From IMG/VR virus record IMGVR_UViG_3300026290_000001: DNA of 64,000 nt. One strand, 5' to 3'. This DNA comes from a virus. A program made the position numbers and the translations under genes. Shown in pieces: positions 7,671 to 41,323 of the stretch. Each line of letters begins with the position of its first letter. Positions within the stretch are counted from its first letter, which is position 1. The notes beneath the pieces were generated by a model that saw only the letters and a list, made by a program, of their open reading frames with translations, made no database searches and was not told the DNA's origin.

Positions 7671-8759
7671 ATGGCAATTAAAAAAGCTAACATTCAATGG
7701 AGTGCTAAACAGTTAACCAAATCAATTGAAAAAGGTACTATTACCTTTGACAATGCGGTGCAAAGAGGTTATGTATGGGATCAAGATAGAAAATCCTTAC
7801 TCATTCATAGTATGCTGGAGGGTTTTCCTATACCTGCATTTTTCGCAGCAAAAGATGAAAATGGCTATAGTATGCTTGATGGAAAACAAAGATCAGAAGC
7901 AATTTCCGGCTACATAAACGGCAATTATTTCTTAACTAATTTACCAGAGGTTATGGCGGAAATCACAGTACAAAATACAGAAAATAAGAAGGAAACAATA
8001 GAAGAAGAACTTGACATTAACGGCTCTTACTTTTCAGATTTGCCCGAAGATTTACAAGACCGTATTAGAGACTATTCCCTTACCGTTTACTATTTTGATG
8101 GAATAACCGAAGAAGAGGTAAACGAAATGTTTTTCCGGCTTAACAATGGCAAACCACTTACCGCTATTGAACTGACCAGAGTGAAGGCAAAATCTTTAGA
8201 AAAATTTCAAGAAATCGGTCAGCATCAATTATTTACCTCTACACTAACCGAAAAAGCAATTTCTAAGTATACCCATGAGGATTTGGTAATAAAATCCTGG
8301 GTGATGCTTAACACAGAAAATCCAGACTTAGGAACTAAGAACATTCGTTCTATTGTAGAGGTAAAAGATATTACAAACGAACAAGCGGATAATCTAAAAA
8401 CAGTTTATGACAAGGTTTTAGAAGTCTATACCATTTTGACCGCAGGAGACAAACAGGATAAAAAAACCGCAAAGCGTATTATAACCAGAACTCATTTCCT
8501 AAGTTTACTGCCTATCATTTCCAAACAGATTGACAGTAATTCCTGGAATACAGAACAATTTACAAGCTGGGTAAGACGTTTCTTTGGTAGTGATGAAGGT
8601 ACAACGATTAATGAAGAATACAACGAACTATCTAAAAGTGGAAGCAATAAGCCAGATAACATTAGAAGAAGGTTAGAGATTATCAAGATAGATTTTAGAC
8701 AATACCTGCTCAGTAGTAAAGATATTGAAGATAGTAGTCAAGATCAAGGTGTAGCGTAA
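7671..8759 (+). CDS. DUF262 / ParB-like NTPase-domain protein
   Basis: QRGYVWDQDRKSLLIHSMLEGFPIP and LDGKQRSEAI resemble the DUF262 (GmrSD N-domain, DndB-like) signature; no HNH/DUF1524 motif seen; track ORF 7662 trimmed to ATG. Confidence 0.55.
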   Translation: MAIKKANIQWSAKQLTKSIEKGTITFDNAVQRGYVWDQDRKSLLIHSMLEGFPIPAFFAAKDENGYSMLDGKQRSEAISGYINGNYFLTNLPEVMAEITVQNTENKKETIEEELDINGSYFSDLPEDLQDRIRDYSLTVYYFDGITEEEVNEMFFRLNNGKPLTAIELTRVKAKSLEKFQEIGQHQLFTSTLTEKAISKYTHEDLVIKSWVMLNTENPDLGTKNIRSIVEVKDITNEQADNLKTVYDKVLEVYTILTAGDKQDKKTAKRIITRTHFLSLLPIISKQIDSNSWNTEQFTSWVRRFFGSDEGTTINEEYNELSKSGSNKPDNIRRRLEIIKIDFRQYLLSSKDIEDSSQDQGVA

Positions 8760-22023: not shown

Positions 22024-23253
22024 ATGATTGAGTTAAAAGGTAAATACACAATAGCAAAAGTATTCACCGATAATATAGATCAAGAAACAATATCTCAAAT
22101 AATTAATCTATGTAATCAAGACTTTACTGAAAACAGTAAAATACGTATAATGAGCGATTGTCATGCTGGTAAGGGATGTGTAATTGGTTTTACTGCTGAT
22201 TTAGGTGATAAAGTAATTCCCAATCTTATAGGTGTGGATATTGGATGTGGTTGTCTTACCGCTGAATTAGGTAAAATCAATCCAGACTTACAAAAACTAA
22301 ATGATGTTATTCATAAATACATTCCTAGTGGTAGAGATATTCATGAAGGTAGGATTTTAAAATTCCCTGAATTACAGGAGTTATATTGTTATAGAGAACT
22401 AAAAGAAACTAAACGAATTGAGAAAAGTATTGGCACACTAGGTGGAGGAAATCACTTTATAGAGTTAAACCAGGATGATGAAGATAATATTTATCTAGTG
22501 ATTCATTCAGGAAGTAGAAATTTAGGCAAACAAGTAGCAGACTATTATCAAAACATTGCTATTGAATTAAGAAGTGGTAGAGAAGAATATTATCTTGAAA
22601 GAGATAAAATTATTAAAGAGTATAAAGAGCAGGGTAGAAAAAAAGAAATTCAATCAGCATTAAAGCAATTAGACAATAAGTATCAACATTCTCAACCAGA
22701 TTATCCTAAAGAATTATGTTTTTTAGAAGGAATATGGAGAGAAAGATATTTACATGATATGGAGATTTGTCAGGAATACGCTAATATAAATAGAATGGCA
22801 ATGGCTGATATAATCCTTAAAAAATGGTTGAATTTAAATATTATATCATTGATACCAAATTTCTTTCAAACTATCCATAATTACATTAACTTTAAAGATA
22901 ATATCATTCGTAAAGGCTCTATTTCTGCCTATAAAGGTGAAAAGGTATTAATCCCTATTAATATGCGTGATGGATCATTATTATGTGTTGGTAAAGGTAA
23001 TCCAGATTGGAATTATTCTGCACCACATGGGGCTGGTAGATTAATGAGTAGGGGTAAGGCGAAACAAAATATTTCAATGGAAGAATATCAAAAATCTATG
23101 GAAGGTATATTTACCACTTCAGTTAATTTATCAACTTTAGATGAAGCACCTATGGCGTATAAATCTATGGATGAGATAGTAAATAATATTGGTGATACGG
23201 TTGATATTTTAAAAGTAATTAAACCTATTTATAATTTTAAAGCAGGAGAATAA
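22024..23253 (+). CDS. rtcB: RtcB-family RNA ligase
   Basis: SDCHAGKG, GGGNHFIEL and NYSAPHGAGR motifs correspond to RtcB metal-binding / His-GMP regions. Confidence 0.7.
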   Translation: MIELKGKYTIAKVFTDNIDQETISQIINLCNQDFTENSKIRIMSDCHAGKGCVIGFTADLGDKVIPNLIGVDIGCGCLTAELGKINPDLQKLNDVIHKYIPSGRDIHEGRILKFPELQELYCYRELKETKRIEKSIGTLGGGNHFIELNQDDEDNIYLVIHSGSRNLGKQVADYYQNIAIELRSGREEYYLERDKIIKEYKEQGRKKEIQSALKQLDNKYQHSQPDYPKELCFLEGIWRERYLHDMEICQEYANINRMAMADIILKKWLNLNIISLIPNFFQTIHNYINFKDNIIRKGSISAYKGEKVLIPINMRDGSLLCVGKGNPDWNYSAPHGAGRLMSRGKAKQNISMEEYQKSMEGIFTTSVNLSTLDEAPMAYKSMDEIVNNIGDTVDILKVIKPIYNFKAGE

Positions 23254-26354: not shown

Positions 26355-27437
26355 ATGAGTAGTTTGATAGTGGAAGTGTGCAGAGTAGACGAAATAGAAA
26401 AACATCCTAATGCAGATAAACTTTCTATAGTCACAGTTAAAGGATGGAATTGCATTGTAGGGTTAGACCAGTATAAACAAGGAGATTTAGTAGTATTTGT
26501 TCCACCAGATAGCATTATTCCTGAAAATATCATTGAAAAATATAATCTTACATATTTAAAGAATGGTGGTCGAGTAGGAACTACAAAATTACGTGGATTT
26601 ATTTCTCAAGGTCTTATACTTGATTTGCCCGAAGGTAAATTTAAAGTTGGAGATGATGTATCTAAAGTTTTAGGTATAACCAAATGGGAACCACCCGTAT
26701 CGCAAAATCATCAGCAAGCCAATGTCATTTCTAAGAAAAAATTAAATCCATATTTTGATCGATATACAGAAATAGAGAATATTAAAAACTATAAGAATGT
26801 ATTTGAACCTGGGGATAAAATAGTTATTACTGAAAAAATTCATGGTTCAAATTGGAGAGCAGGGAATTTACCTATAGTAATTGATAAATCACAACCTTTA
26901 ATATATAGATTTAGAGCGTGGTTTAGTAAATTATTAGGAAATTCTCACCAATTTGTATACGGCAGTCATAATGTTCAACTACATGGCAAAAATAAAAACA
27001 ATAATTTTTACGGTGAAGACCTATGGGGTAAGATTTGCAATAAATATAATATGATAAATATAATTCCTAAAGATTATATTATATATGGTGAAGTATATGG
27101 TATTGGAGTACAAGATTTAACTTATGGGTTAAAAGATGTTGATCTAGTTGTATTTGATATTAAATATAATGGAAAATATTTGCCTTGGGACGAAGTAGTA
27201 AAGTTTTGTAGACAATATAGTTTGCCAACAGTTCCTTTATTGTATATCGGTGATTTTGAAGAAGGGATAATTGAAAAATATACAAGTGGTAAATCAACAA
27301 TTTGTCCCAATCAAATTCGTGAAGGTTGTGTAGTAAAAGACCTTTGGGAAGAGCAGGATAAGCGAATTGGAAGAAAGATTTTGAAGAGTATTAATCCAGA
27401 TTATTTACTGAGAAAGAATGGAACAGAATATAGGTAA
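26355..27437 (+). CDS. RNA ligase (Rnl2-like nucleotidyltransferase) with N-terminal tRNA-binding-like OB domain
   Basis: N-terminus VCRVDEIEKHPNADKLSIVTVKGWNCIVG resembles the Myf / tRNA_bind signature (HPNADKL); EKIHGSN matches the T4 Rnl2-type KxHGxN adenylylation motif. Confidence 0.55.
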   Translation: MSSLIVEVCRVDEIEKHPNADKLSIVTVKGWNCIVGLDQYKQGDLVVFVPPDSIIPENIIEKYNLTYLKNGGRVGTTKLRGFISQGLILDLPEGKFKVGDDVSKVLGITKWEPPVSQNHQQANVISKKKLNPYFDRYTEIENIKNYKNVFEPGDKIVITEKIHGSNWRAGNLPIVIDKSQPLIYRFRAWFSKLLGNSHQFVYGSHNVQLHGKNKNNNFYGEDLWGKICNKYNMINIIPKDYIIYGEVYGIGVQDLTYGLKDVDLVVFDIKYNGKYLPWDEVVKFCRQYSLPTVPLLYIGDFEEGIIEKYTSGKSTICPNQIREGCVVKDLWEEQDKRIGRKILKSINPDYLLRKNGTEYR

Positions 27438-28349: not shown

Positions 28350-28680
28350 TTTAAATATGAATATTATAATAAAGGAGCATAATATATGAATGAAATAAAT
28401 AAAATAATTAATTATTTAATTACTATTGGATACGTTATTAAAAATGGAAGTGCATATTTACCTAGCGATAAAGAATTTGAAATTCCTTATGATGTTAGAA
28501 TGACACATTTTTTACACACGAATAAAATTTGTAATTATGAAGTACATGAAATGTAAATAAAAAACATAACCAAAATTCCATTTTATCATGATTTTCAGGA
28601 TGAAGAATCCCAATATACAGGCATCTATTTTTTGATTAATTGACAAAAATATAAAATAAATATAGGAGGAATAATACATA

Positions 28681-28725
28681 TTGTTAGAATTAAATAATTT
28701 TTACATAGGTGAAAATGCGAAATAG
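28681..28725 (+). pseudogene. 15-codon remnant of a methyltransferase 5' end
   Basis: TTG LLELNNFYIGE then stop; matches the first ~30 nt of the genes at 35506 and 40520; lies at the junction with G+C-richer DNA. Confidence 0.45.
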
Positions 28726-28733
28726 ACAGACAC

Positions 28734-29534
28734 ATGGAGAGGAGGAATGACCTGGTGGCGTTACCTTTGTTGATTGCCAAAAAAGAACAGAAGTTAAAAC
28801 AAAACTTATCAATTAAACTTTCAAATGAGAGTTGTTTTGATTTTCTCAAGAGATTGGACAGTAATTCAATATCGCTCATTCTGATTGACCCTCCTTACGG
28901 AGTTTCGAGAGATACAAATTTCGCTTCTGGTGAGGAAACGGGTAAAGATACTGATAGATTTAGAGTGTCTATGGATTTCGGTGATTGGGATTATGATTTT
29001 AATGATTTAGCAGGTGTAATTAAAGAATGTTACAGAGTTCTTAAAAAAGGTGGAACGATGATTTGTTTCTATGACCTCTGGAAAATCACAACTCTTAAAC
29101 AGTATTTTGATGATGCTAAATTTAAGCAACTTAGATACATAGAATGGATTAAGACAAATCCTGTTCCACTTAATAGTAAAACTAATTATCTCACAAATTC
29201 AAGAGAGATTGCCCTTGTTGGTGTAAAAGGTGGGAAACCAACTTTCCATTCAGAATATGATAATGGTATTTATAGTTATCCAATTTGTCACGATAAAGGT
29301 AGATTCCATCCTACACAGAAGCCTTTAGCTCTTATCGAAGATTTAATTGTTAAACATTCTGATGAGGGAGACCTTATTTGTGATTGTTTCTCAGGTTCAG
29401 GCACTACTGCTGTTGCATCTTATAATACCAATCGTAATTTTGTAGGATGTGAATTATCTAAAGAATATTACGACAAATCACTTCTTCGTTTTGAAGAACG
29501 AGGTTTCGATGGAAGGAGTGGTACTGATGAGTAG
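28734..29534 (+). CDS. DNA methyltransferase, beta-class (N6A or N4C)
   Basis: LILIDPPYG (motif IV) N-terminal and FHPTQKP ... DCFSGSGTT (motif I) C-terminal; G+C visibly higher than flanks. Confidence 0.7.
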   Translation: MERRNDLVALPLLIAKKEQKLKQNLSIKLSNESCFDFLKRLDSNSISLILIDPPYGVSRDTNFASGEETGKDTDRFRVSMDFGDWDYDFNDLAGVIKECYRVLKKGGTMICFYDLWKITTLKQYFDDAKFKQLRYIEWIKTNPVPLNSKTNYLTNSREIALVGVKGGKPTFHSEYDNGIYSYPICHDKGRFHPTQKPLALIEDLIVKHSDEGDLICDCFSGSGTTAVASYNTNRNFVGCELSKEYYDKSLLRFEERGFDGRSGTDE

Positions 29535-29726
29535 TGTTGATAAAACTATTCAGGATATGATTAAACGCAGTCCAAAGAGACTGCGACGGGGAGGGGTGAT
29601 CTTATGTTAAAAAAGTGTAACAGGGGGTTGTTTAGATGAATACAGAAAATGCAATGGAGACTGCGGCAATTGTGATTATTCATCAGAGCCCACAAAAGGC
29701 TAATTATCGCAGTTCCATAAAAAGAG

Positions 29727-29755
29727 TTGACAAGCATCTTGACACAGTGTAGTAT
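29727..29755 (+). promoter_or_regulatory. sigma-A-type promoter (TTGACA-17-TAGTAT)
   Basis: Direct reading inside the G+C-richer insert. Confidence 0.45.
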
Positions 29756-29834
29756 AAATACATACCCGTATGTCTATATCCGTACAACCAAGACGGGGGC
29801 TTATTTGGTGGGAATAAAATATTGAGGTGACATA

Positions 29835-30650
29835 ATGGATAGATTTCTAAACCAAATAATTTGCGGCGACAACGTAGAAGTAATGCGACAGATGCCAGAC
29901 AACTGCATAGACCTAACGGTAACTTCACCACCATACGATAATTTGAGAACTTATAACGGATATTCATGGGAATTTGAAGCGGTCGCTAACGAATTGTACC
30001 GCATAACAAAACCGGGTGGCGTGGTTGTGTGGGTAGTCGCCGACGCGACAGTTAAAGGCAGTGAGACAGGTACATCATTTAGACAGGCTCTTTACTTTAT
30101 GGACTGCGGATTTAATTTGCATGACACTATGATTTATGCAAAAAACAGTTATATGCCATTAACGCACAACAGATATGAGCAACAATTTGAATATATGTTT
30201 GTTTTTTCAAAGGGCAAGCCCAAGACGTTTAATCCAATAAAGATTAAGTCACAGACGGCAGGAACAAAGCGAAACCGAGGTGGAAGCAAGGCAAAAGAGA
30301 TGTCATATGCCGAAAGATTAAGAAATGAAAAGACAACTGTAAACGAATACAAGCAAGCACCAAATATTTTTTGGTATGACGTTGGGAAAAACGACAAAAG
30401 CATACACAATGCACCGTTTCCAGAACAGCTCGCAAACGACCACATTATTTCATGGAGTAATGAAGGAGATATTATCTTAGACCCAATGTGTGGTTCTGGC
30501 ACTACTTGTAAAATGGCTTATTTAAACAAAAGAAATTTTATTGGTATTGATATAAGCGAAGAATACATAAATGATATTTGTATACCAAGATTAAATTCTT
30601 ATGGATGGCAACAAAAAGAAAATATAAATATAGGAGGTAAAATAAAATAG
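29835..30650 (+). CDS. DNA methyltransferase, beta-class, SPPY type (probably N4-cytosine); chimeric
   Basis: TSPPYD and DPMCGSGTT; G+C-rich 5' two-thirds, AT-rich 3' end near-identical to the 3' ends of 35506-36345 and 40520-41323. Confidence 0.7.
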   Translation: MDRFLNQIICGDNVEVMRQMPDNCIDLTVTSPPYDNLRTYNGYSWEFEAVANELYRITKPGGVVVWVVADATVKGSETGTSFRQALYFMDCGFNLHDTMIYAKNSYMPLTHNRYEQQFEYMFVFSKGKPKTFNPIKIKSQTAGTKRNRGGSKAKEMSYAERLRNEKTTVNEYKQAPNIFWYDVGKNDKSIHNAPFPEQLANDHIISWSNEGDIILDPMCGSGTTCKMAYLNKRNFIGIDISEEYINDICIPRLNSYGWQQKENINIGGKIK

Positions 30651-31471
30651 CAAAAATTGAATTAGACAAGTATTATACTCCACCTGATTTAGCACAATAC
30701 ATAGTTAATAAAACAAAAGAAATTATAGGTGAAGATAATATTACTGAATATATAGAACCATCAGCAGGAGCAGGGGTGTTTTTAGATTATTTAGATAGAG
30801 AAAATGTTCCTTATTTGGCTTATGATATTGAACCAGAGGACAATAGGATTATTAAACAAGATTTTTTAGAGTTAGAATTAGAGTATAAAAAGGGTAGGTG
30901 TGTGATTGGGAATCCACCATATGGTAAATATATGAAACTTGCTGAACAATTTTATAAAAAGTCTATAGGAATAGGAGATTATATATCATTTATTTTACCA
31001 ATTAGCCAATTTAATAATAATATTAAATTATTTGATTTTGATTTAATATTTAGTGAAAATTTAGGTATTAAAGATTATTCAAATAAAAAAATTCATTGTT
31101 GTTTTAATATTTATAAAAGACCTAGTGGTAATCTTAATAAAAAACCAAATTATAAACTTAAAGAAGTTGAAATTAAAACTTCTCATAGAAAAGCACATCC
31201 TCCAAAAACTAATTTTATAACTAGAGATATTTTTGATTATGATATTAGAATATGTGCATGGGGTTCCTCAATAGGTAAAGTTTGTGAGTATGAAGGGCAA
31301 TATTCAACAGAGATGTGTATTAAAATCAAAAATGAAAAGTATAAAAATATAATTATCGATTTAATAAAAAATGTAAAATGGATTGATGTTTATCCTATGT
31401 TTGGTGCTCCACATATAGATTTATGGCATATTTATAAATACATAAAAGAACAAATACCTGAAATAAATTAA
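30647..31471 (+). CDS. N6-adenine DNA methyltransferase, gamma-class, probable ATA start
   Basis: YYTPPDLAQYIV, EPSAGAGVF (motif I) and GNPPYGK (motif IV); conserved region begins at ATA overlapping upstream TAG (ATAG), 9 nt after AGGAGG; track starts at internal GTG 30776. Confidence 0.6.
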   Translation: MAKIELDKYYTPPDLAQYIVNKTKEIIGEDNITEYIEPSAGAGVFLDYLDRENVPYLAYDIEPEDNRIIKQDFLELELEYKKGRCVIGNPPYGKYMKLAEQFYKKSIGIGDYISFILPISQFNNNIKLFDFDLIFSENLGIKDYSNKKIHCCFNIYKRPSGNLNKKPNYKLKEVEIKTSHRKAHPPKTNFITRDIFDYDIRICAWGSSIGKVCEYEGQYSTEMCIKIKNEKYKNIIIDLIKNVKWIDVYPMFGAPHIDLWHIYKYIKEQIPEIN

Positions 31472-34387: not shown

Positions 34388-34552
34388 ATGACTTTTGGAT
34401 TTACTTATTTTATCTCTAAAAGGGATAAAAGCGCAGAAAGAATAATTAATATTGAAGCAGAGTCGGAAGAACAGGCATTTGATAAATACATAAAGTTTTT
34501 AAGTGAGCATCATATGGTTATGGGTGAATCACTTGGAGAAAAGTTAAAATAA
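34388..34552 (+). CDS. small hypothetical protein (54 aa), not in track
   Basis: ATG after GAGGTGAAA SD. Confidence 0.3.
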   Translation: MTFGFTYFISKRDKSAERIINIEAESEEQAFDKYIKFLSEHHMVMGESLGEKLK

Positions 34553-34607
34553 AAACAACACAAAAAATCAATTTGGTTCAAACTTTTACAAAAAACACAA
34601 TATAAAA

Positions 34608-35378
34608 ATGAAAGGAGAATTAGTATATAAGTTGCAATTATACTATAAAGATGAATACATAAGATTATTTCAAGGTGATTGTTTAGAAGTAATGGATAGG
34701 TTAATTGAGAAAGGTGTTAAATTTGATGCAATAATTACTGATCCTCCTTACGGGACTACAGCTTGTAAATGGGATAGTATCATACCATTTGATAGTATGT
34801 GGGAAAGATTAAATAAGTTAATAAAGGATAATAGTGCAATAGTTTTATTTGGTAGTGAACCATTTAGTAGTCATTTAAGAGTAAGTAATATTAAAAATTT
34901 TAAATATGATTGGATATGGAATAAAAAGAAGGGAGGAAGTCCTTTACTTTCTAAAATACAACCAATAAAAATATTTGAAATTATATCTGTTTTTGGGAAA
35001 GGGAAAATAAATTATTATCCAGTAATGGTTGATAGAGATAAACCTAAATCAAGGGGTAAGAATAGAGGAACTATTAGTGATACAACAAATAATTGTTTTT
35101 CAGAAGATAAGATTTATACGCAATATTATCCTAAAGCAATTATAGAATTTTCAAATGCTAGTCAAAAAAATAAATTTCACCCAACTCAAAAACCAGTGGA
35201 GCTAATGGAATATCTTATTAACACATATACACAAGAGAATGAAATTATATTAGATTTTACTTGCGGTTCTGGTACAACATTATTAGCATCAAGAAATCTT
35301 AAAAGAAAATGTATCGGTATTGAATTGGAAGAAAAATATTGTGAAATAACTAAACAAAGATTAGAAAAAGCAAGTTAA
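34608..35378 (+). CDS. DNA methyltransferase, beta-class (DPPY)
   Basis: ITDPPYGT and FHPTQKP ... DFTCGSGTT; true start may be in-frame TTG near 34632 because AAAGGAG lies just after the track ATG. Confidence 0.7.
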   Translation: MKGELVYKLQLYYKDEYIRLFQGDCLEVMDRLIEKGVKFDAIITDPPYGTTACKWDSIIPFDSMWERLNKLIKDNSAIVLFGSEPFSSHLRVSNIKNFKYDWIWNKKKGGSPLLSKIQPIKIFEIISVFGKGKINYYPVMVDRDKPKSRGKNRGTISDTTNNCFSEDKIYTQYYPKAIIEFSNASQKNKFHPTQKPVELMEYLINTYTQENEIILDFTCGSGTTLLASRNLKRKCIGIELEEKYCEITKQRLEKAS

Positions 35379-35505
35379 ATATAAAAACAGCATAAAATTC
35401 TAGTTTGGTTCAAAAATAGACGCCTAAAGATTGGGATTCTTAGAGTATGGATTTTTCAAAATAATTATTAAAATAAAAATATAAATATTGGAGGTAAATA
35501 TATAA

Positions 35506-36345
35506 TTGATAGAATTAAATAATTTTTATATAGGGGAATCTGTTAATTTTATGCGTAAAAATATTCCTGATAATTTTGTAGATTTAACAGTTACAAGTCC
35601 ACCTTATGATGATTTAAGAAAATATAATGGATTTATTTTTGATTATGAAACAATTTTTAAAGAACTTTTTAGAATAACTAAAAATGGTGGAATTGTTGTA
35701 TGGATAATAGGAGATAAGACAGAAAAAGGAACGGAAAGTCTAACAAGTTTTAAACATGCTTTAAGTGCTAAAAATATAGGATTTAATGTTCATGATACAA
35801 TGATATGGTTAAAACCTAATCCAACACCAACTGATCCTAAATGTTTAAGATATTATAATGCTTTTGAATACATGTTCGTTTTTTCTAAAGGAAAACCAAA
35901 AACATGTAATTATATAAAAGAAAAATCTAAAAATACAGGTAAAGAATTTGGTTCAGCTCCAATGAAAAGAGTAGATGGAACTAACAGAGATGACAGAACT
36001 GAAAAGTTAAAGGGTATAAAAATAAAAGACTATAAAATTAAAAGTAATGTATGGGAATGTGCTATAGGTTCAGGGGTATCTAAAGATAAAATTGCTTTTA
36101 AACATCCAGCAATTTTCCCTGAAAAATTAGTTGAAGATCACATAATTTCTTGGACTAATAAAAATGATATTGTACTAGACCCTATGTGTGGTTCGGGTAC
36201 AACGTGCAAAATGGCATGGTTAAACAAGCGTAATTTTATTGGAATTGATATGAGTGAAGAATACATAAATAACATTTGTATACCAAGATTAAATACATAT
36301 GGTTGGGAACAGAATAAAGAAAACGTATTTCAAGATTGCCTATAA
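35506..36345 (+). CDS. DNA methyltransferase, beta-class, SPPY type (paralog group)
   Basis: TSPPYDD and DPMCGSGTT; TTG start; high nucleotide similarity to 40520-41323. Confidence 0.7.
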   Translation: MIELNNFYIGESVNFMRKNIPDNFVDLTVTSPPYDDLRKYNGFIFDYETIFKELFRITKNGGIVVWIIGDKTEKGTESLTSFKHALSAKNIGFNVHDTMIWLKPNPTPTDPKCLRYYNAFEYMFVFSKGKPKTCNYIKEKSKNTGKEFGSAPMKRVDGTNRDDRTEKLKGIKIKDYKIKSNVWECAIGSGVSKDKIAFKHPAIFPEKLVEDHIISWTNKNDIVLDPMCGSGTTCKMAWLNKRNFIGIDMSEEYINNICIPRLNTYGWEQNKENVFQDCL

Positions 36346-36419
36346 ATTGGGCTTTATAATCTATAAAATCATTACCAAATTTGAGTTTGGTTCAAAGTTA
36401 TAGAAAGGAGAAATTATAA

Positions 36420-39232: not shown

Positions 39233-39427
39233 ATGTTTGATTGTAGATTCGCTAAAAGTATTCTATTGGATAAAAATGAAGATGATACTTATCATATGAC
39301 AATAAAAGGAGATATTTATAATCTTGATCCTGAAGCGGAAATTGATTTTTCTAGAGTGAAAATTATTAATTTTGATATTGAGGCATTAGCAACAACTGGG
39401 ACAATATGTAAAATAAAAATAATATAA
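39233..39427 (+). CDS. hypothetical protein
   Basis: Track ORF with AAGGAGAAA SD. Confidence 0.4.
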   Translation: MFDCRFAKSILLDKNEDDTYHMTIKGDIYNLDPEAEIDFSRVKIINFDIEALATTGTICKIKII

Positions 39428-39521
39428 AATTTTTGTTTGGTTAAGAAATTTATAATTATTATAGGGATTGATTTTACCATAATTTTAATATATAATAAAA
39501 ATAAAAACGGAGGTTTTATAT

Positions 39522-40461: not shown

Positions 40462-40519
40462 TAATATAAAAACAATATAAATATTTGGTTTGGTCATGAA
40501 ATATGAAAGGAGATTATAT

Positions 40520-41323
40520 TTGATAGAATTAAATAATTTTTACATAGGCGAGTCTGTTAATTTTATGCGTTACAATATTCCAGACAACTACATTGATTTA
40601 ACTATTACTTCACCACCTTATGATGATTTAAGAAAATATAATGGATTTATATTTGATTATCAAAGTATGTTTAAGGAATTATATAGAGTTACTAAAGACG
40701 GTGGAATTGTAGTTTGGGTAGTAGGAGATAAAACTGAAAATGGTAGTGAAACATTAACAAGTTTTAAACATGCTTTATATGCTAAAGAAATCGGTTTTAA
40801 TGTTCACGATACACAAATTTATTATAAGAATAATCCTATACCAACAACAGGCAATAGATATCATCAACACTTTGAATATATGTTCGTATTTAGCAAGAAT
40901 AAACCAAGGGTATTTAATCCAATCAAGGAAGATTGTAAATATAGTGGTTTGGCTAATATGAAAAATAGAGGCAAGGATGGTTCATTAAATTATACTAAAA
41001 TTGAAAGAACTAAAGATAAAAAGGTAGGTAATGTTTTCTTTTATTCTATTGGAGGGGGTATTACTACTAAAGATAAAATTGCTTATAGTCATCCTGCGTT
41101 GTTTCCAGATAAATTAGCCGAAGATCAAATAATAACTTGGAGCAATAAAGAAGATATTATTTTTGACCCAATGTGCGGTAGTGGTACTACTTGTAAAATG
41201 GCATGGTTAAATAAAAGAAATTTTATTGGAATTGATATAAGTGAAGAATATATAAATGATATTTGTATACCTAGACTAAATATATATGGTTGGCAACAAA
41301 AGCAAAATATAAAAATATCATAA
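40520..41323 (+). CDS. DNA methyltransferase, beta-class, SPPY type (paralog group)
   Basis: TSPPYDD and DPMCGSGTT; track ORF 40490 trimmed to TTG after AAAGGAGA SD. Confidence 0.7.
   Translation: MIELNNFYIGESVNFMRYNIPDNYIDLTITSPPYDDLRKYNGFIFDYQSMFKELYRVTKDGGIVVWVVGDKTENGSETLTSFKHALYAKEIGFNVHDTQIYYKNNPIPTTGNRYHQHFEYMFVFSKNKPRVFNPIKEDCKYSGLANMKNRGKDGSLNYTKIERTKDKKVGNVFFYSIGGGITTKDKIAYSHPALFPDKLAEDQIITWSNKEDIIFDPMCGSGTTCKMAWLNKRNFIGIDISEEYINDICIPRLNIYGWQQKQNIKIS

What the first reader, a model, noticed from the sequence alone, without database searches (positions are those of the whole stretch)
28681..30650. G+C-richer foreign cassette has replaced the 5' part of a resident methyltransferase, leaving a stub and a chimeric gene
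At 28681 a TTG-initiated reading frame encodes LLELNNFYIGE and then stops; these about 30 nt match the 5' ends of the paralogs at 35506 and 40520. Immediately downstream the DNA becomes visibly G+C-richer (by eye, not computed) and carries a complete DPPY methyltransferase (28734-29534), a promoter and the 5' two-thirds of the SPPY methyltransferase at 29835. Near 30430-30470 composition drops back and the 3' end of that gene (DPMCGSGTTCKMA ... EEYINDICIPRLN) becomes near-identical to the 3' ends of the 35506 and 40520 paralogs. This is a recombination footprint giving a hybrid methyltransferase whose target-recognition region is likely foreign.
Basis: seen in the sequence. Interest (0 to 1): 0.7.

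Follow-up and report, generated by a model that had tools for sequence, protein, structure and literature searches.

The report
Patchwork methyltransferase locus in a phage
In a large AT-rich phage from anaerobic digesters, foreign DNA from at least three sources has recombined into one gene of a long array of DNA-methyltransferase genes. It left an 11-codon stub, a methyltransferase that has lost its restriction-enzyme partner, and a hybrid methyltransferase. This is a clear but not unusual example of how phages reshuffle their anti-restriction genes.

Summary
The stub, the G+C step and the hybrid gene are all confirmed by computation and by related sequences.

- **Stub.** Positions 28681-28713 are the 5' end of a resident "R-frame" beta-class methyltransferase (MTase). 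A distant relative (L039/L195) carries the intact gene behind the same leader.
- **Insert.** It is a patchwork, not one cassette:
  - the last 12 codons of a "P-frame" MTase plus the start of its downstream gene (28714-28789);
  - a DPPY MTase, 96% identical to one in a T4-like phage, with a replaced N-terminus;
  - 19 codons of that MTase's IceA/NlaIII-type endonuclease partner;
  - 239 nt of unknown origin;
  - the 5' 600 nt of a P-frame MTase.
- **Crossover.** The switch back to resident sequence lies between 30437 and 30449, in the conserved HIISWSN block.
- **Target-recognition block.** Positions 30105-30430 are 98.5-100% identical to six P-frame contigs of 44-48% G+C, although the flanks within the same genes are only 57-90% identical to the window. 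The mirror case also exists: the AT-rich recognition block of the R-frame gene sits inside GC-rich P-frame genes.
- **Order of pieces.** R5'-P3'-insert-P5'-R3' suggests single-crossover integration of a circular molecule followed by a deletion. This step is inferred.

Swapping of phage MTase genes and recognition domains is a known kind of event. Interest is moderate.

The parts
28547..28680 (+). Resident intergenic leader of the disrupted gene, with Shine-Dalgarno AGGAGG at 28664-28669.
   Evidence: 89% identical to L039 1595-1758, which precedes an intact R-frame gene. The 34-nt leader at 28643-28676 recurs at 30611-30644 (85%), and similar leaders precede other MTase genes of the array.
28681..28713 (+). 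Stub: the first 11 codons (TTG start) of the resident R-frame methyltransferase. The mini-ORF runs on to the TAG at 28723-28725.
   Evidence: 30 of 33 nt match paralogs B and C, with no match in 100 shuffles. L039 also matches 30 of 33 and continues as a full gene.
28714..28789 (+). The last 12 codons and TGA (28748-28750) of a P-frame methyltransferase, plus about the first 40 nt of its downstream 86-aa gene, including AGGAGG at 28740-28745.
   Evidence: 97.5% identical over 79 nt to L005 1290-1367, L036 and L052.
28755..29534 (+). DPPY beta-class DNA methyltransferase, now without an endonuclease partner. The probable start is GTG 28755, 9 nt after AGGAGG; ATG 28734 is the alternative. The L006-like sequence begins at about 28783.
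   Evidence: PF01555 match, E = 5e-38. 95.9% nucleotide identity to L006 3503-4278. 23 synonymous against 6 non-synonymous codon differences. DPPY and FSGSGTT motifs are present.
29509..29565 (+). Remnant (19 codons, MEGVVLMSSVDKTIQDMIK) of the IceA/NlaIII-type restriction endonuclease gene that follows this methyltransferase in L006. The frame runs on to a stop at 29608-29610.
   Evidence: The L006 protein matches Pfam PF05315 (ICEA) at 33.3 bits, above the cut-off of 24. The same gene pair occurs in L101 and L102 and, in the opposite order, in L113 and L115-L120.
29566..29804 (.). Segment X: 239 nt of about 40% G+C and unknown origin. It contains a TTGACA-17-TAGTAT promoter-like match at 29727-29755.
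   Evidence: No match in Rfam, viral contigs, phage or plasmid records or any fetched locus. The promoter scan is not above chance.
29805..29834 (+). 30 nt identical to the DNA just upstream of P-frame genes. In L005 this is the 3' end of another methyltransferase gene together with the ribosome-binding site.
   Evidence: 100% identical to L005, L036 and L052.
29835..30650 (+). Chimeric SPPY beta-class methyltransferase (gene A, 271 aa).
   Evidence: PF01555 match, E = 1e-42. The same sequence is present in assemblies from at least seven samples.
29835..30077 (+). P-frame N-terminal (catalytic, SPPY) module of gene A. It is itself a patchwork relative to known P-frame alleles.
   Evidence: 75-80% identical overall to P-frame contigs, with 97-100% patches to L051 (29865-29924) and L005 (30045-30074). 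GC3 is 0.41.
30078..30433 (+). Target-recognition block 'alpha' plus most of motif X (the conserved helix just before the AdoMet-binding motif I), shared almost unchanged by many P-frame genes.
   Evidence: Exact runs of 326-356 nt with L005, L036, L051 and L052. Identity is 98.5-100% in all pairs, while the flanks are 57-94% identical in nearly all pairs.
30438..30448 (+). Crossover interval from P-frame to R-frame sequence, inside the conserved HIISWSN coding block.
   Evidence: Last P-specific site at 30437, first R-specific site at 30449.
30449..30622 (+). Resident R-frame C-terminal (AdoMet-binding, DPMCGSGTT) module of gene A.
   Evidence: 81-85% nucleotide identity to B, C, L039 and L023 and 85-90% amino-acid identity. 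GC3 is 0.17.
35506..36345 (+). Paralog B: an R-frame methyltransferase with a different recognition block.
40520..41323 (+). Paralog C: an R-frame methyltransferase with a third recognition block.
   Evidence: An ortholog with 84% amino-acid identity lies in L023.

Best explanation
**What it is.** The window belongs to a phage of about 135-138 kb and 28% G+C. Between 27.7 and 45.5 kb it carries an array of about 15 DNA-methyltransferase genes without endonucleases. One resident gene of that array, an 'R-frame' beta-class SPPY methyltransferase paralogous to 35506 and 40520, was disrupted by recombination with foreign phage DNA.

**Junctions.** The right-hand junction is a crossover within about 20 nt of homology, in the conserved motif-X coding block (HIISWSN, 30438-30448). 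The left-hand junction (28713/28714) is illegitimate, with 2-3 nt of microhomology.

**Result.**
- An 11-codon stub that still carries the resident leader, ribosome-binding site and TTG start.
- A DPPY methyltransferase taken from an R-M gene pair of a T4-like phage. Its endonuclease gene is reduced to 19 codons, and its start was rebuilt from the ribosome-binding site of an unrelated gene.
- A hybrid methyltransferase with the catalytic module and recognition block of a 'P-frame' gene from GC-richer phages, and the AdoMet-binding module of the resident gene.

**Likely function (inferred).** Both enzymes probably methylate the phage's own DNA and so extend its protection against host restriction systems.

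**Likely path (inferred, about 35-40% confidence).** The order R5' - P3'end - other DNA - P5' - R3' is what a single Campbell-type crossover produces when a circular molecule carrying a P-frame gene integrates into the R gene. A later deletion of about 750 nt would have removed most of the left-hand reciprocal hybrid and fixed the insertion in place.

**Wider pattern.** The event is one instance of recurrent exchange of the roughly 330-nt recognition block, and of whole genes, between methyltransferase genes of co-occurring phages. The conserved motif-coding stretches and the shared gene leaders serve as the homology for this exchange.
For: **Shown by tool results.**
- Stub and leader are orthologous to an intact gene in L039/L195.
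- Segment-by-segment matches: 97.5% to L005/L036/L052, 95.9% to L006, and 100% for the 30-nt flank and the recognition block.
- A sharp P-to-R switch at 30437/30449, p = 3e-21.
- GC3 of 0.41 in the P part against 0.17 in the R part of one gene.
- The locus is variable among relatives with 94% nucleotide identity. L029 has a different, also G+C-richer methyltransferase behind the same leader, and L038 has none.
- R-frame genes A, B, C and L039 share their N- and C-terminal modules (82-90% amino-acid identity) but differ in the recognition block (44-55%).
- The reciprocal case exists. The AT-rich (24% G+C) block of L039 lies, 95% identical, inside the GC-rich P-frame genes L194 and L196.
- Among P-frame alleles, L052 combines the 5' part of L005 with the 3' part of L036.
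- The IceA partner is documented in L006, L101 and L102, and its 19-codon remnant is in the window.
- The DPPY gene is under purifying selection, with 23 synonymous and 6 non-synonymous differences.
- Both ORFs are intact and have motifs IV and I.
- The sequence is identical in assemblies from at least seven samples, so it is not an assembly artefact.

**From the literature.** Orphan methyltransferases are the most frequent annotated genes in variable islands of phage genomes and protect against host R-M systems (PMC7468147).
Against: - No relative with the immediate pre-insertion state, or with the undeleted left-hand hybrid, was found. The order of events, and the Campbell step in particular, therefore remains an inference.
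- The 3' R-type part of A is no closer to the positional ortholog L039 (81%) than to paralogs B and C (82-85%). Later gene conversion from a paralog cannot be excluded.
- Positions 29855-30070 match no known P-frame allele better than 75-80%, and segment X has no known source. No single donor carrying the whole insert was found.
- Neither methyltransferase activity nor specificity was tested.
- DPPYG replaces the DPPYE seen in the four close relatives read.
- The AlphaFold model of the hybrid has low confidence (mean pLDDT 59).
Confidence: 0.8

Rival explanations
1. Gene conversion in the opposite direction. A complete foreign P-frame gene arrived with the insert, and its 3' 200 nt were later overwritten by conversion from paralog B or C. 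On this view the R-type 3' end is not a leftover of the gene that once sat here.
For: The 3' part of A is slightly closer to C (84.6%) and B (82.1%) than to the positional ortholog L039 (80.8%). Paralogs with long homology arms lie 5-10 kb away (D1-D3).
Against: The stub and leader show that an R-frame gene did sit here. The differences of 81-85% are within noise for 156 nt. The separate P 3'-end fragment sits to the left of the insert rather than at the end of gene A, which conversion alone does not explain.
Confidence: 0.12
2. One double-crossover replacement from a donor that already carried the whole mosaic (3' end of one P gene, DPPY gene, X, 5' part of a second P gene). No circular intermediate and no later deletion would be needed.
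For: Methyltransferase arrays with several paralogs exist, this window among them. In L005 another methyltransferase gene lies directly upstream of the P gene. The P 3' fragment is 97.5% identical to L005, whereas the N-terminal part of A is only about 78% identical. The two P pieces could therefore come from two different genes.
Against: No such donor was found among 50 P-type and 80 DPPY-type viral loci. The internal junctions at 28789, 29565 and 29804 would still need to be explained within the donor.
Confidence: 0.3
3. Step-by-step build-up in place. The DPPY gene, X and the P-frame pieces arrived in separate recombination events at a hot spot, rather than as one insert.
For: The segments have different sources and G+C contents: L006 is 27% G+C and L005 is 48%. 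The locus differs among three relatives with 94% nucleotide identity. P-frame alleles are themselves patchworks.
Against: Every copy of this phage found, from at least seven samples, has the same final structure with no intermediates.
Confidence: 0.25
4. There was no recombination. The stub is only the leader and N-terminal motif common to these genes, the G+C rise reflects amino-acid composition, or the contig is an assembly chimera.
For: LELN-type N-termini and similar leaders precede several methyltransferase genes in the array. One assembly (ERZ795066) breaks inside gene A.
Against: 166 nt are 89% identical to L039 up to the exact end of the stub. There are exact runs of 326-356 nt with foreign contigs. 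The GC3 contrast lies within a single ORF. Independent assemblies give identical sequence. The ERZ795066 break lies at the edge of the shared block, as expected for a repeat.
Confidence: 0.02

Closest known systems
Phage orphan DNA methyltransferases and variable anti-restriction islands (Murphy et al. 2013, cited in PMC7468147; Bellas et al. 2020, PMC7468147)
   Same: These are methyltransferase genes without endonucleases in a phage genome. They sit in a region that differs between near-identical phages, and they are thought to protect phage DNA from host R-M systems.
   Different: Here the array is unusually long, with about 15 methyltransferase-like genes in 18 kb. The recombination footprint can be resolved to the junction, including a stub, a permuted gene fragment and an endonuclease remnant.
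IceA1/HpyI and NlaIII-type R-M systems (CATG; my own knowledge of Helicobacter iceA1-hpyIM, with Pfam PF05315 as the tested link)
   Same: In L006, L101 and L102 the closest relatives of the DPPY gene are directly followed by an ICEA-family endonuclease gene.
   Different: In the window the endonuclease is cut to 19 codons. The methyltransferase is a 259-aa beta-class enzyme whose CATG specificity is only guessed. The Pfam match of the partner is modest (33 bits).
Recognition-domain swapping in DNA methyltransferases: multispecific Bacillus phage C5 methyltransferases, Type I HsdS and Type III Mod allele shuffling, and 'domain movement' in Helicobacter (my own knowledge)
   Same: A variable recognition module is flanked by conserved sequence and exchanged by homologous recombination between otherwise divergent genes. 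This gives new combinations of frame and recognition domain.
   Different: Here it concerns single-domain beta-class (N6A/N4C) Type II-like orphan enzymes of phages. The exchange crosses a gap of 20 percentage points in G+C, and it runs in both directions.
Campbell-type single-crossover integration of a circular DNA (lambda, suicide plasmids; my own knowledge)
   Same: The order of fragments, resident 5' - incoming 3' - rest of insert - incoming 5' - resident 3', is the signature of such an event.
   Different: No integrase or attachment site is present. The homology is a short conserved coding motif. One of the two reciprocal hybrids is almost entirely deleted, so the signature is only partial.
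Solved beta-class methyltransferases (M.MboIIA 1g60, M1.HpyAVI 5hek, M.RsrI 1eg2, CcrM 6pbd, N4C methyltransferase 8s9n, TTHA0409 2zie)
   Same: The motif order is the same (IV ... recognition domain ... X, I), and sequence matches reach E = 1e-20 to 1e-29.
   Different: None is a close relative, and the recognition blocks do not align. The target base (N6-adenine or N4-cytosine) and the target sequence therefore stay unknown.

Membership tests
Beta-class N6-adenine/N4-cytosine DNA methyltransferase (Pfam PF01555) | Pfam N6_N4_Mtase match above the gathering score. | tested here: met
   DPPY gene 131.7 bits, gene A 147.1, B 149.1, C 135.0; the cut-off is 26.7.
Beta-class N6-adenine/N4-cytosine DNA methyltransferase (Pfam PF01555) | Motif IV ((D/S)PPY) lies N-terminal to motif I (FxGxG-type), with the variable region between them. 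| tested here: met
   DPPY at residue 45 and DCFSGSGTT at 210 in the DPPY enzyme. SPPY at 31 and DPMCGSGTT at 216 in gene A.
Beta-class N6-adenine/N4-cytosine DNA methyltransferase (Pfam PF01555) | Methyltransferase activity on a defined DNA sequence. | not testable with these tools
   This needs expression and methylome sequencing.
Complete Type II restriction-modification system | A cognate restriction endonuclease gene lies next to the methyltransferase. | tested here: not met
   Only 19 codons of the IceA-type gene remain (29509-29565), followed by a stop. No other IceA-like sequence occurs in the 64 kb.
IceA/NlaIII-type (CATG) R-M pair, methyltransferase component | The closest homologs are genetically linked to an ICEA-family endonuclease. 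| tested here: met
   L006-L008 (95.9% nucleotide identity) and L101/L102 have the ICEA gene directly downstream.
IceA/NlaIII-type (CATG) R-M pair, methyltransferase component | Methylation of CATG. | not testable with these tools
   There is only an indirect hint. CATG has an observed/expected ratio of 1.01 in the window, while most 4-nt palindromes with G or C (GATC, AGCT, GTAC, TGCA, ACGT, GCGC and others) are at 0.24-0.83.
Phage orphan-methyltransferase anti-restriction island | Several methyltransferase genes without endonucleases in a phage genome, in a region that varies between close relatives. | tested here: met
   About 15 methyltransferase-like ORFs lie between 27.7 and 45.5 kb. The contig neighbours include RtcB and RNA ligase genes, and the sequence is listed among IMG/VR viral contigs. 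L029 and L038 differ at this locus.
Phage orphan-methyltransferase anti-restriction island | Protection of phage DNA from host restriction. | not testable with these tools
Campbell-type (single-crossover) integration product | Fragment order: resident 5' - incoming 3' - insert - incoming 5' - resident 3'. | tested here: met
   Stub 28681-28713, P 3' end 28714-28750, insert, P 5' part 29835-30437, R 3' part 30449-30622.
Campbell-type (single-crossover) integration product | Both reciprocal hybrids share the same crossover point. | not testable with these tools
   The left hybrid is deleted except for 11 plus 12 codons.
Transposon, IS element, integron cassette or homing-endonuclease-borne insertion | Terminal inverted repeats, target-site duplication, attC site, or a transposase, integrase or homing-endonuclease gene. 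| tested here: not met
   No significant inverted repeats bound the insert. The only flanking direct repeat is the gene leader shared across the array. No such gene appears among the ORFs.

The most novel reading that the evidence does not exclude
The methyltransferase array may be a cassette-exchange system rather than a passive mosaic. On this reading, the shared 34-45-nt gene leaders (AAATAAATATAGGAGG...TTG.T.GAATTAAAT) and the two conserved motif-coding arms (GFNLHDT and FP..LA.DHI..WSN) act as preferred recombination sites, perhaps for a phage recombinase working on short homology. Whole methyltransferase genes and 330-nt recognition blocks would then be swapped at high rate between co-infecting phages of very different G+C content. 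That would give phage populations a fast way to change their methylation repertoire.

The data show the exchanges, including an identical block in at least six sequence contexts and transfer in both directions. They do not show any dedicated mechanism.
Probability: 0.12. Interest if true: 0.65.

Novelty: new member of a known kind. Interest (0 to 1): 0.42.

Why it matters
**A junction-level record.** The locus shows how a phage rebuilds its anti-restriction repertoire.
- An R-M gene pair is captured and loses its endonuclease.
- A new start is improvised from an unrelated ribosome-binding site.
- A hybrid enzyme is made by crossing over in a conserved motif.

**A natural 2 x 2 experiment.** Together with the relatives found here, there are two frames and two recognition blocks, and all four combinations exist in nature:
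- L039/L195 (R-frame with block beta);
- L194/L196 (P-frame with block beta);
- L005-type (P-frame with block alpha);
- window gene A (P-frame N-terminal module and block alpha, with the R-frame C-terminal module).

This set could be used directly to test whether the roughly 110-aa central block alone sets the specificity of beta-class methyltransferases.

**Evidence of recent exchange.** A block that is 98.5-100% identical in nucleotides sits in genes whose flanks differ by 10-40%, on contigs from several separate digester and wastewater assemblies. This indicates very recent and frequent genetic exchange between phages of unlike composition.

Tried and rejected
- **Isolate phage records.** Megablast of 27.5-31.6 kb found only a 75% match to the phiCD211-group methyltransferase, with no close relative. 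The distant mode found only generic methyltransferase similarity.
- **Flanking genes in viral contigs.** Searches with MT27777, MT30776 and the RNA ligase found either the same phage or relatives too distant to keep synteny.
- **Segment X (29566-29804).** There was no Rfam family, no exact match in viral contigs, no plasmid match and no match in about 190 fetched loci. Six-frame translation gave only a weak V.G.C.DE resemblance to the IceA N-terminus. Its origin is unresolved.
- **Representative bacterial genomes.** An exact 44-mer from the recognition block was absent. The protein-guided scan gave only relatives of 61% identity or less in metagenome-assembled genomes. The donors therefore appear to be phages not represented in those genomes.
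- **Search for the undeleted reciprocal hybrid.** A synthetic query (R-frame N-terminal part with block beta, fused to a P-frame C-terminus) did not find it. It did reveal the mirror-image chimeras P0043 and P0068.
- **AlphaFold model of gene A.** Confidence was too low (pLDDT 59) to use beyond secondary structure at the junction. No fold search was run.
- **Mobile-element vehicle.** No inverted repeats or transposase were found.
- **Promoter claim.** It is not above chance.
Full report
**Setting.** The window is part of a phage genome of about 135-138 kb and 28% G+C. Virtually identical copies (99.99-100%) were recovered in assemblies of at least seven metagenome samples from JGI, ENA and Logan. 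Its only link to isolate phages is a 75% match of one methyltransferase gene to the large Clostridioides phages phiCD211 and phiCDIF1296T. From 27.7 to 45.5 kb the + strand carries about 15 ORFs with DNA-methyltransferase motifs or Pfam matches and no endonuclease. Three of them are paralogs of one 'R-frame': gene A (29835), B (35506) and C (40520). They share a 5' arm of about 300 nt (B against C 82%) and a 3' arm of about 235 nt, and they differ in the middle.

**Checking the observation.**
- The 33-nt stub at 28681-28713 matches the starts of B and C with three mismatches each. No match occurred in 100 shuffles.
- Positions 28726-30470 have 37.6% G+C. This is the highest 1.75-kb value in the window, whose mean is 27.9% with sd 2.3%.
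- Codon third positions separate the two parts of gene A: GC3 is 0.41 for 29835-30440 and 0.17 for 30441-30650, against 0.19 +/- 0.06 for the phage's other ORFs.
- At sites that distinguish four P-frame genes from four R-frame genes, A is P-type at 92 of 99 sites up to 30437 and R-type at 30 of 32 sites from 30449 on (Fisher p = 3e-21).

The stub, the compositional step and the hybrid gene are therefore all real.

**A relative without the insert.** The single metagenome scan with the upstream methyltransferase MT27777 returned L039. The later protein look-up of P0099 returned L195, a longer contig that is 100% identical to L039 across the gene. In this more distant phage, the MT27777 homolog (67% amino-acid identity) is followed by 166 nt that are 89% identical to window 28547-28712. 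This stretch covers the leader and the first 11 codons. The reading frame then continues as a complete 270-aa R-frame methyltransferase. The similarity to the window ends exactly where the stub ends.

Two relatives that are 94% identical to the window over the upstream genes differ again at this spot. L029 has a different, also G+C-richer (37%) methyltransferase (LLELNKIYNEDC...DLPYGTTACKWD) behind the same ribosome-binding site. L038 has small unrelated genes. The locus is a hot spot for replacement.

**Anatomy of the insert.** The insert is a patchwork.
1. 28714-28789 is 97.5% identical to the last 40 nt of a P-frame methyltransferase gene (...KMRNRQTHGEEE, stop at 28748-28750) plus about the first 40 nt of the 86-aa gene that follows it. 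The matching phage contigs are L005, L036 and L052, at 47-48% G+C.
2. From about 28783 to 29565 the sequence is 95.9% identical to L006-L008, contigs of 27-30% G+C that carry a T4-type portal gene. This covers a DPPY methyltransferase without its own first roughly 10 codons, and the first 19 codons of the overlapping downstream gene.
   - In L006 that downstream gene encodes a 162-aa protein that matches Pfam ICEA (33 bits against a cut-off of 24).
   - The same pair of genes occurs in other large viral contigs.
   - In the window the endonuclease frame diverges after MEGVVLMSSVDKTIQDMIK and stops at 29608-29610.
   - The methyltransferase ORF now starts in P-derived DNA, most plausibly at GTG 28755, 9 nt after the AGGAGG that served the 86-aa gene. 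One gene caller chose 28755 and another chose ATG 28734.
   - Its divergence from L006 is mainly synonymous, with 23 synonymous and 6 non-synonymous codon differences. It has therefore stayed under selection.
3. 29566-29804 (segment X, about 40% G+C) matches nothing I could search.
4. 29805-29834 is 100% identical to the 30 nt upstream of the P-frame gene in L005, L036 and L052.
5. 29835-30437 is the 5' 600 nt of a P-frame gene.

**The hybrid gene and the recognition block.** Protein alignment shows that A follows the P-frame family through ...NAPFPEQLANDHIISWSN. It then switches to the R-frame C-terminus (EGDIILDPMCGSGTTCKMAYLNKRNFIGIDISEEYINDICIPRLN), where P-frame proteins read PGDLVFDPFLGSGTTAKMAYLNGRNYCGIDISEEYCEIARRRVE. 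In beta-class enzymes this point lies after the recognition region and the motif-X helix and before motif I. A low-confidence AlphaFold model places it between helix 195-207 and strand 213-216.

At the nucleotide level, 30105-30430 is 98.5-100% identical between the window and six P-frame contigs, with exact runs of 326-356 nt for four of them. In the same genes the 5' parts are 75-80% and the 3' parts 57-71% identical to the window. Among the P-frame contigs themselves these parts are 75-90% and 61-94% identical in most pairs. P-frame alleles are recombinants of each other: L052 has the 5' part of L005 and the 3' part of L036. In the protein database, 9 of the 120 best clusters have this block at 97% identity or more, and five of those have N-terminal modules below 80% identity.

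**The mirror case.** The intact gene of L039/L195 carries a homologous but distinct block ('beta', 63% amino-acid identity to 'alpha', with the same indel pattern). A search with a synthetic hybrid query found P0043 and P0068. These are P-frame proteins whose central block is identical in amino acids to that of L039. On their contigs L194 and L196 the block has 24% G+C and is 95% identical in nucleotides to L039. Their N- and C-terminal modules have 40% and 49% G+C and are only 57-63% identical to L039. Two frames and two blocks therefore occur in all four combinations, and blocks have moved in both directions between AT-rich and GC-richer phage genes. The boundaries of the blocks coincide with the two best-conserved coding stretches, GFNLHDTMIY and FP..LA.DHI..WSN. 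The second of these is also where the window's crossover lies.

**How it most likely happened.**
- *Shown:* the junction positions; the sources of four of the five segments; the existence of an uninterrupted ortholog; and the recurrent exchange of blocks.
- *Inferred:* the fragment order R5' (stub) - P3' end - other DNA - P5' - R3' is the order produced when a circular DNA carrying a P-frame gene integrates by one crossover into the R gene. The crossover would lie in the motif-X homology. An illegitimate deletion (junction GGTGAA|AATGCG, 2-3 nt of microhomology) would then remove about 750 nt of the left reciprocal hybrid. Such a deletion would also remove the direct repeat that could loop the insert out again.

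I give this path about 35-40%. The alternatives are a single double crossover with a donor that already had two P-type genes flanking the DPPY gene, or stepwise build-up at a hot spot. Neither the undeleted hybrid nor such a donor was found. Later conversion of the 3' end of A from B or C cannot be excluded, because A's 3' module is 81-85% identical to all R-frame genes alike.

**What it does (inference).** Both ORFs are intact, keep motifs IV and I, and are conserved in all copies of the phage. By analogy with phage orphan methyltransferases (PMC7468147 and the Murphy et al. 2013 review cited there), they should methylate phage DNA and blunt host restriction.

The retained resident leader, ribosome-binding site and TTG start would translate a 14-codon mini-ORF. 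It ends 8 nt before ATG 28734 and 29 nt before GTG 28755, which may couple expression of the DPPY gene to the resident signals. The DPPY enzyme's link to an IceA/NlaIII-type endonuclease suggests CATG as its target. CATG is not depleted in the window (observed/expected 1.01), while the other G- or C-containing four-base palindromes tested are at 0.24-0.83. This is only a hint. The SPPY motif of A, B and C leaves open whether they modify N4-cytosine or N6-adenine.

**Comparison and novelty.** Everything here belongs to known kinds: beta-class Type II-like methyltransferases (PF01555), orphan methyltransferases in variable phage islands, loss of the endonuclease from a captured R-M pair, and exchange of recognition domains by recombination in conserved flanks. 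The last is well known for Type I, Type III and multispecific phage C5 enzymes (my own knowledge).

What is particular to this case:
- the completeness of the footprint;
- the permuted P-gene fragments;
- the demonstration, within one family of phage beta-class enzymes, of a nearly invariant 330-nt block in many sequence contexts, with the reciprocal chimera also present.

I rate it a new member of a known kind, with moderate interest.

Noticed in passing
window 30632-30720; L015 about 7825-7945: The methyltransferase downstream of gene A has no ATG, GTG or TTG near its conserved N-terminus; the ORF listing starts it at GTG 30776. Homologs align from about residue 3 of the frame that opens at 30641. 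After AGGAGG (30632-30637) come ATA (30647) GCA AAA ATT (30656) GAA TTA GAC. The same context, AGGAGGTAAAA.AAATAGCAAAAATTGAATTAGA, is conserved in the distant relative L015, while L017 has ATG and L016 has GTG there. An ATA or ATT start is likely.
   Followed up: partly
window 34546-34586, 35378-35418, 36360-36400, 39410-39450, 40463-40503: A 41-nt intergenic motif, AAAATAAAAACA..ATAAAAT....TTTGGTTCAAA, is repeated five times between methyltransferase genes. It may be a phage-specific transcription signal (D4/D5).
   Followed up: no
window 28643-28676 and 30611-30644; also upstream of 35506, 38166 and 42668 (the leader of 40520 is less similar and lacks the AGGAGG): A shared gene leader (AAATAAATATAGGAGG, a short spacer, TTG, then .T.GAATT(A/G)AAT) precedes several methyltransferase genes. 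The L029 replacement starts right after the AGGAGG. These leaders may serve as homology for whole-gene swaps.
   Followed up: partly
whole window: Four-base palindromes that contain G or C are mostly under-represented (AGCT 0.44, GCGC 0.38, CGCG 0.24, GATC 0.71, GTAC 0.68, TGCA 0.70). CATG, TTAA and AATT are not (1.01, 1.00, 0.93).
   Followed up: no
window 30379-30433 (L027 end, L032 start): The ERZ795066 assembly splits this phage exactly at the right edge of the shared recognition block, with a 55-nt overlap. This is expected if other carriers of the same block were present in that sample.
   Followed up: no
window 28887-28901 (DPPYG): The residue after the catalytic DPPY is Gly in this phage. 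It is Glu in the four closest relatives read (P0121-P0123, P0128). The effect on activity is unknown.
   Followed up: no
window 29580-29700, frame +2: Segment X contains a Cys-rich reading frame fragment (GGCLDEYRKCNGDCGNCDYSSEPTKG) and a 38-aa ORF (29636-29752), neither with any detectable relative. V.G.C.DE weakly resembles the conserved YVKGNC(R/Q)DE of IceA-like N-termini.
   Followed up: partly
L195 1052-1843: In the relative with the intact gene, the methyltransferase is followed by a 263-aa protein with a weak HNH match rather than by the window's next methyltransferase. Gene order downstream of the locus therefore also differs.
   Followed up: no
window 22024-23253 and 26355-27437: RtcB-type and Rnl-type RNA ligase genes lie just upstream of the methyltransferase array (Pfam families listed). 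This suggests an RNA-repair, anti-defence neighbourhood.
   Followed up: no
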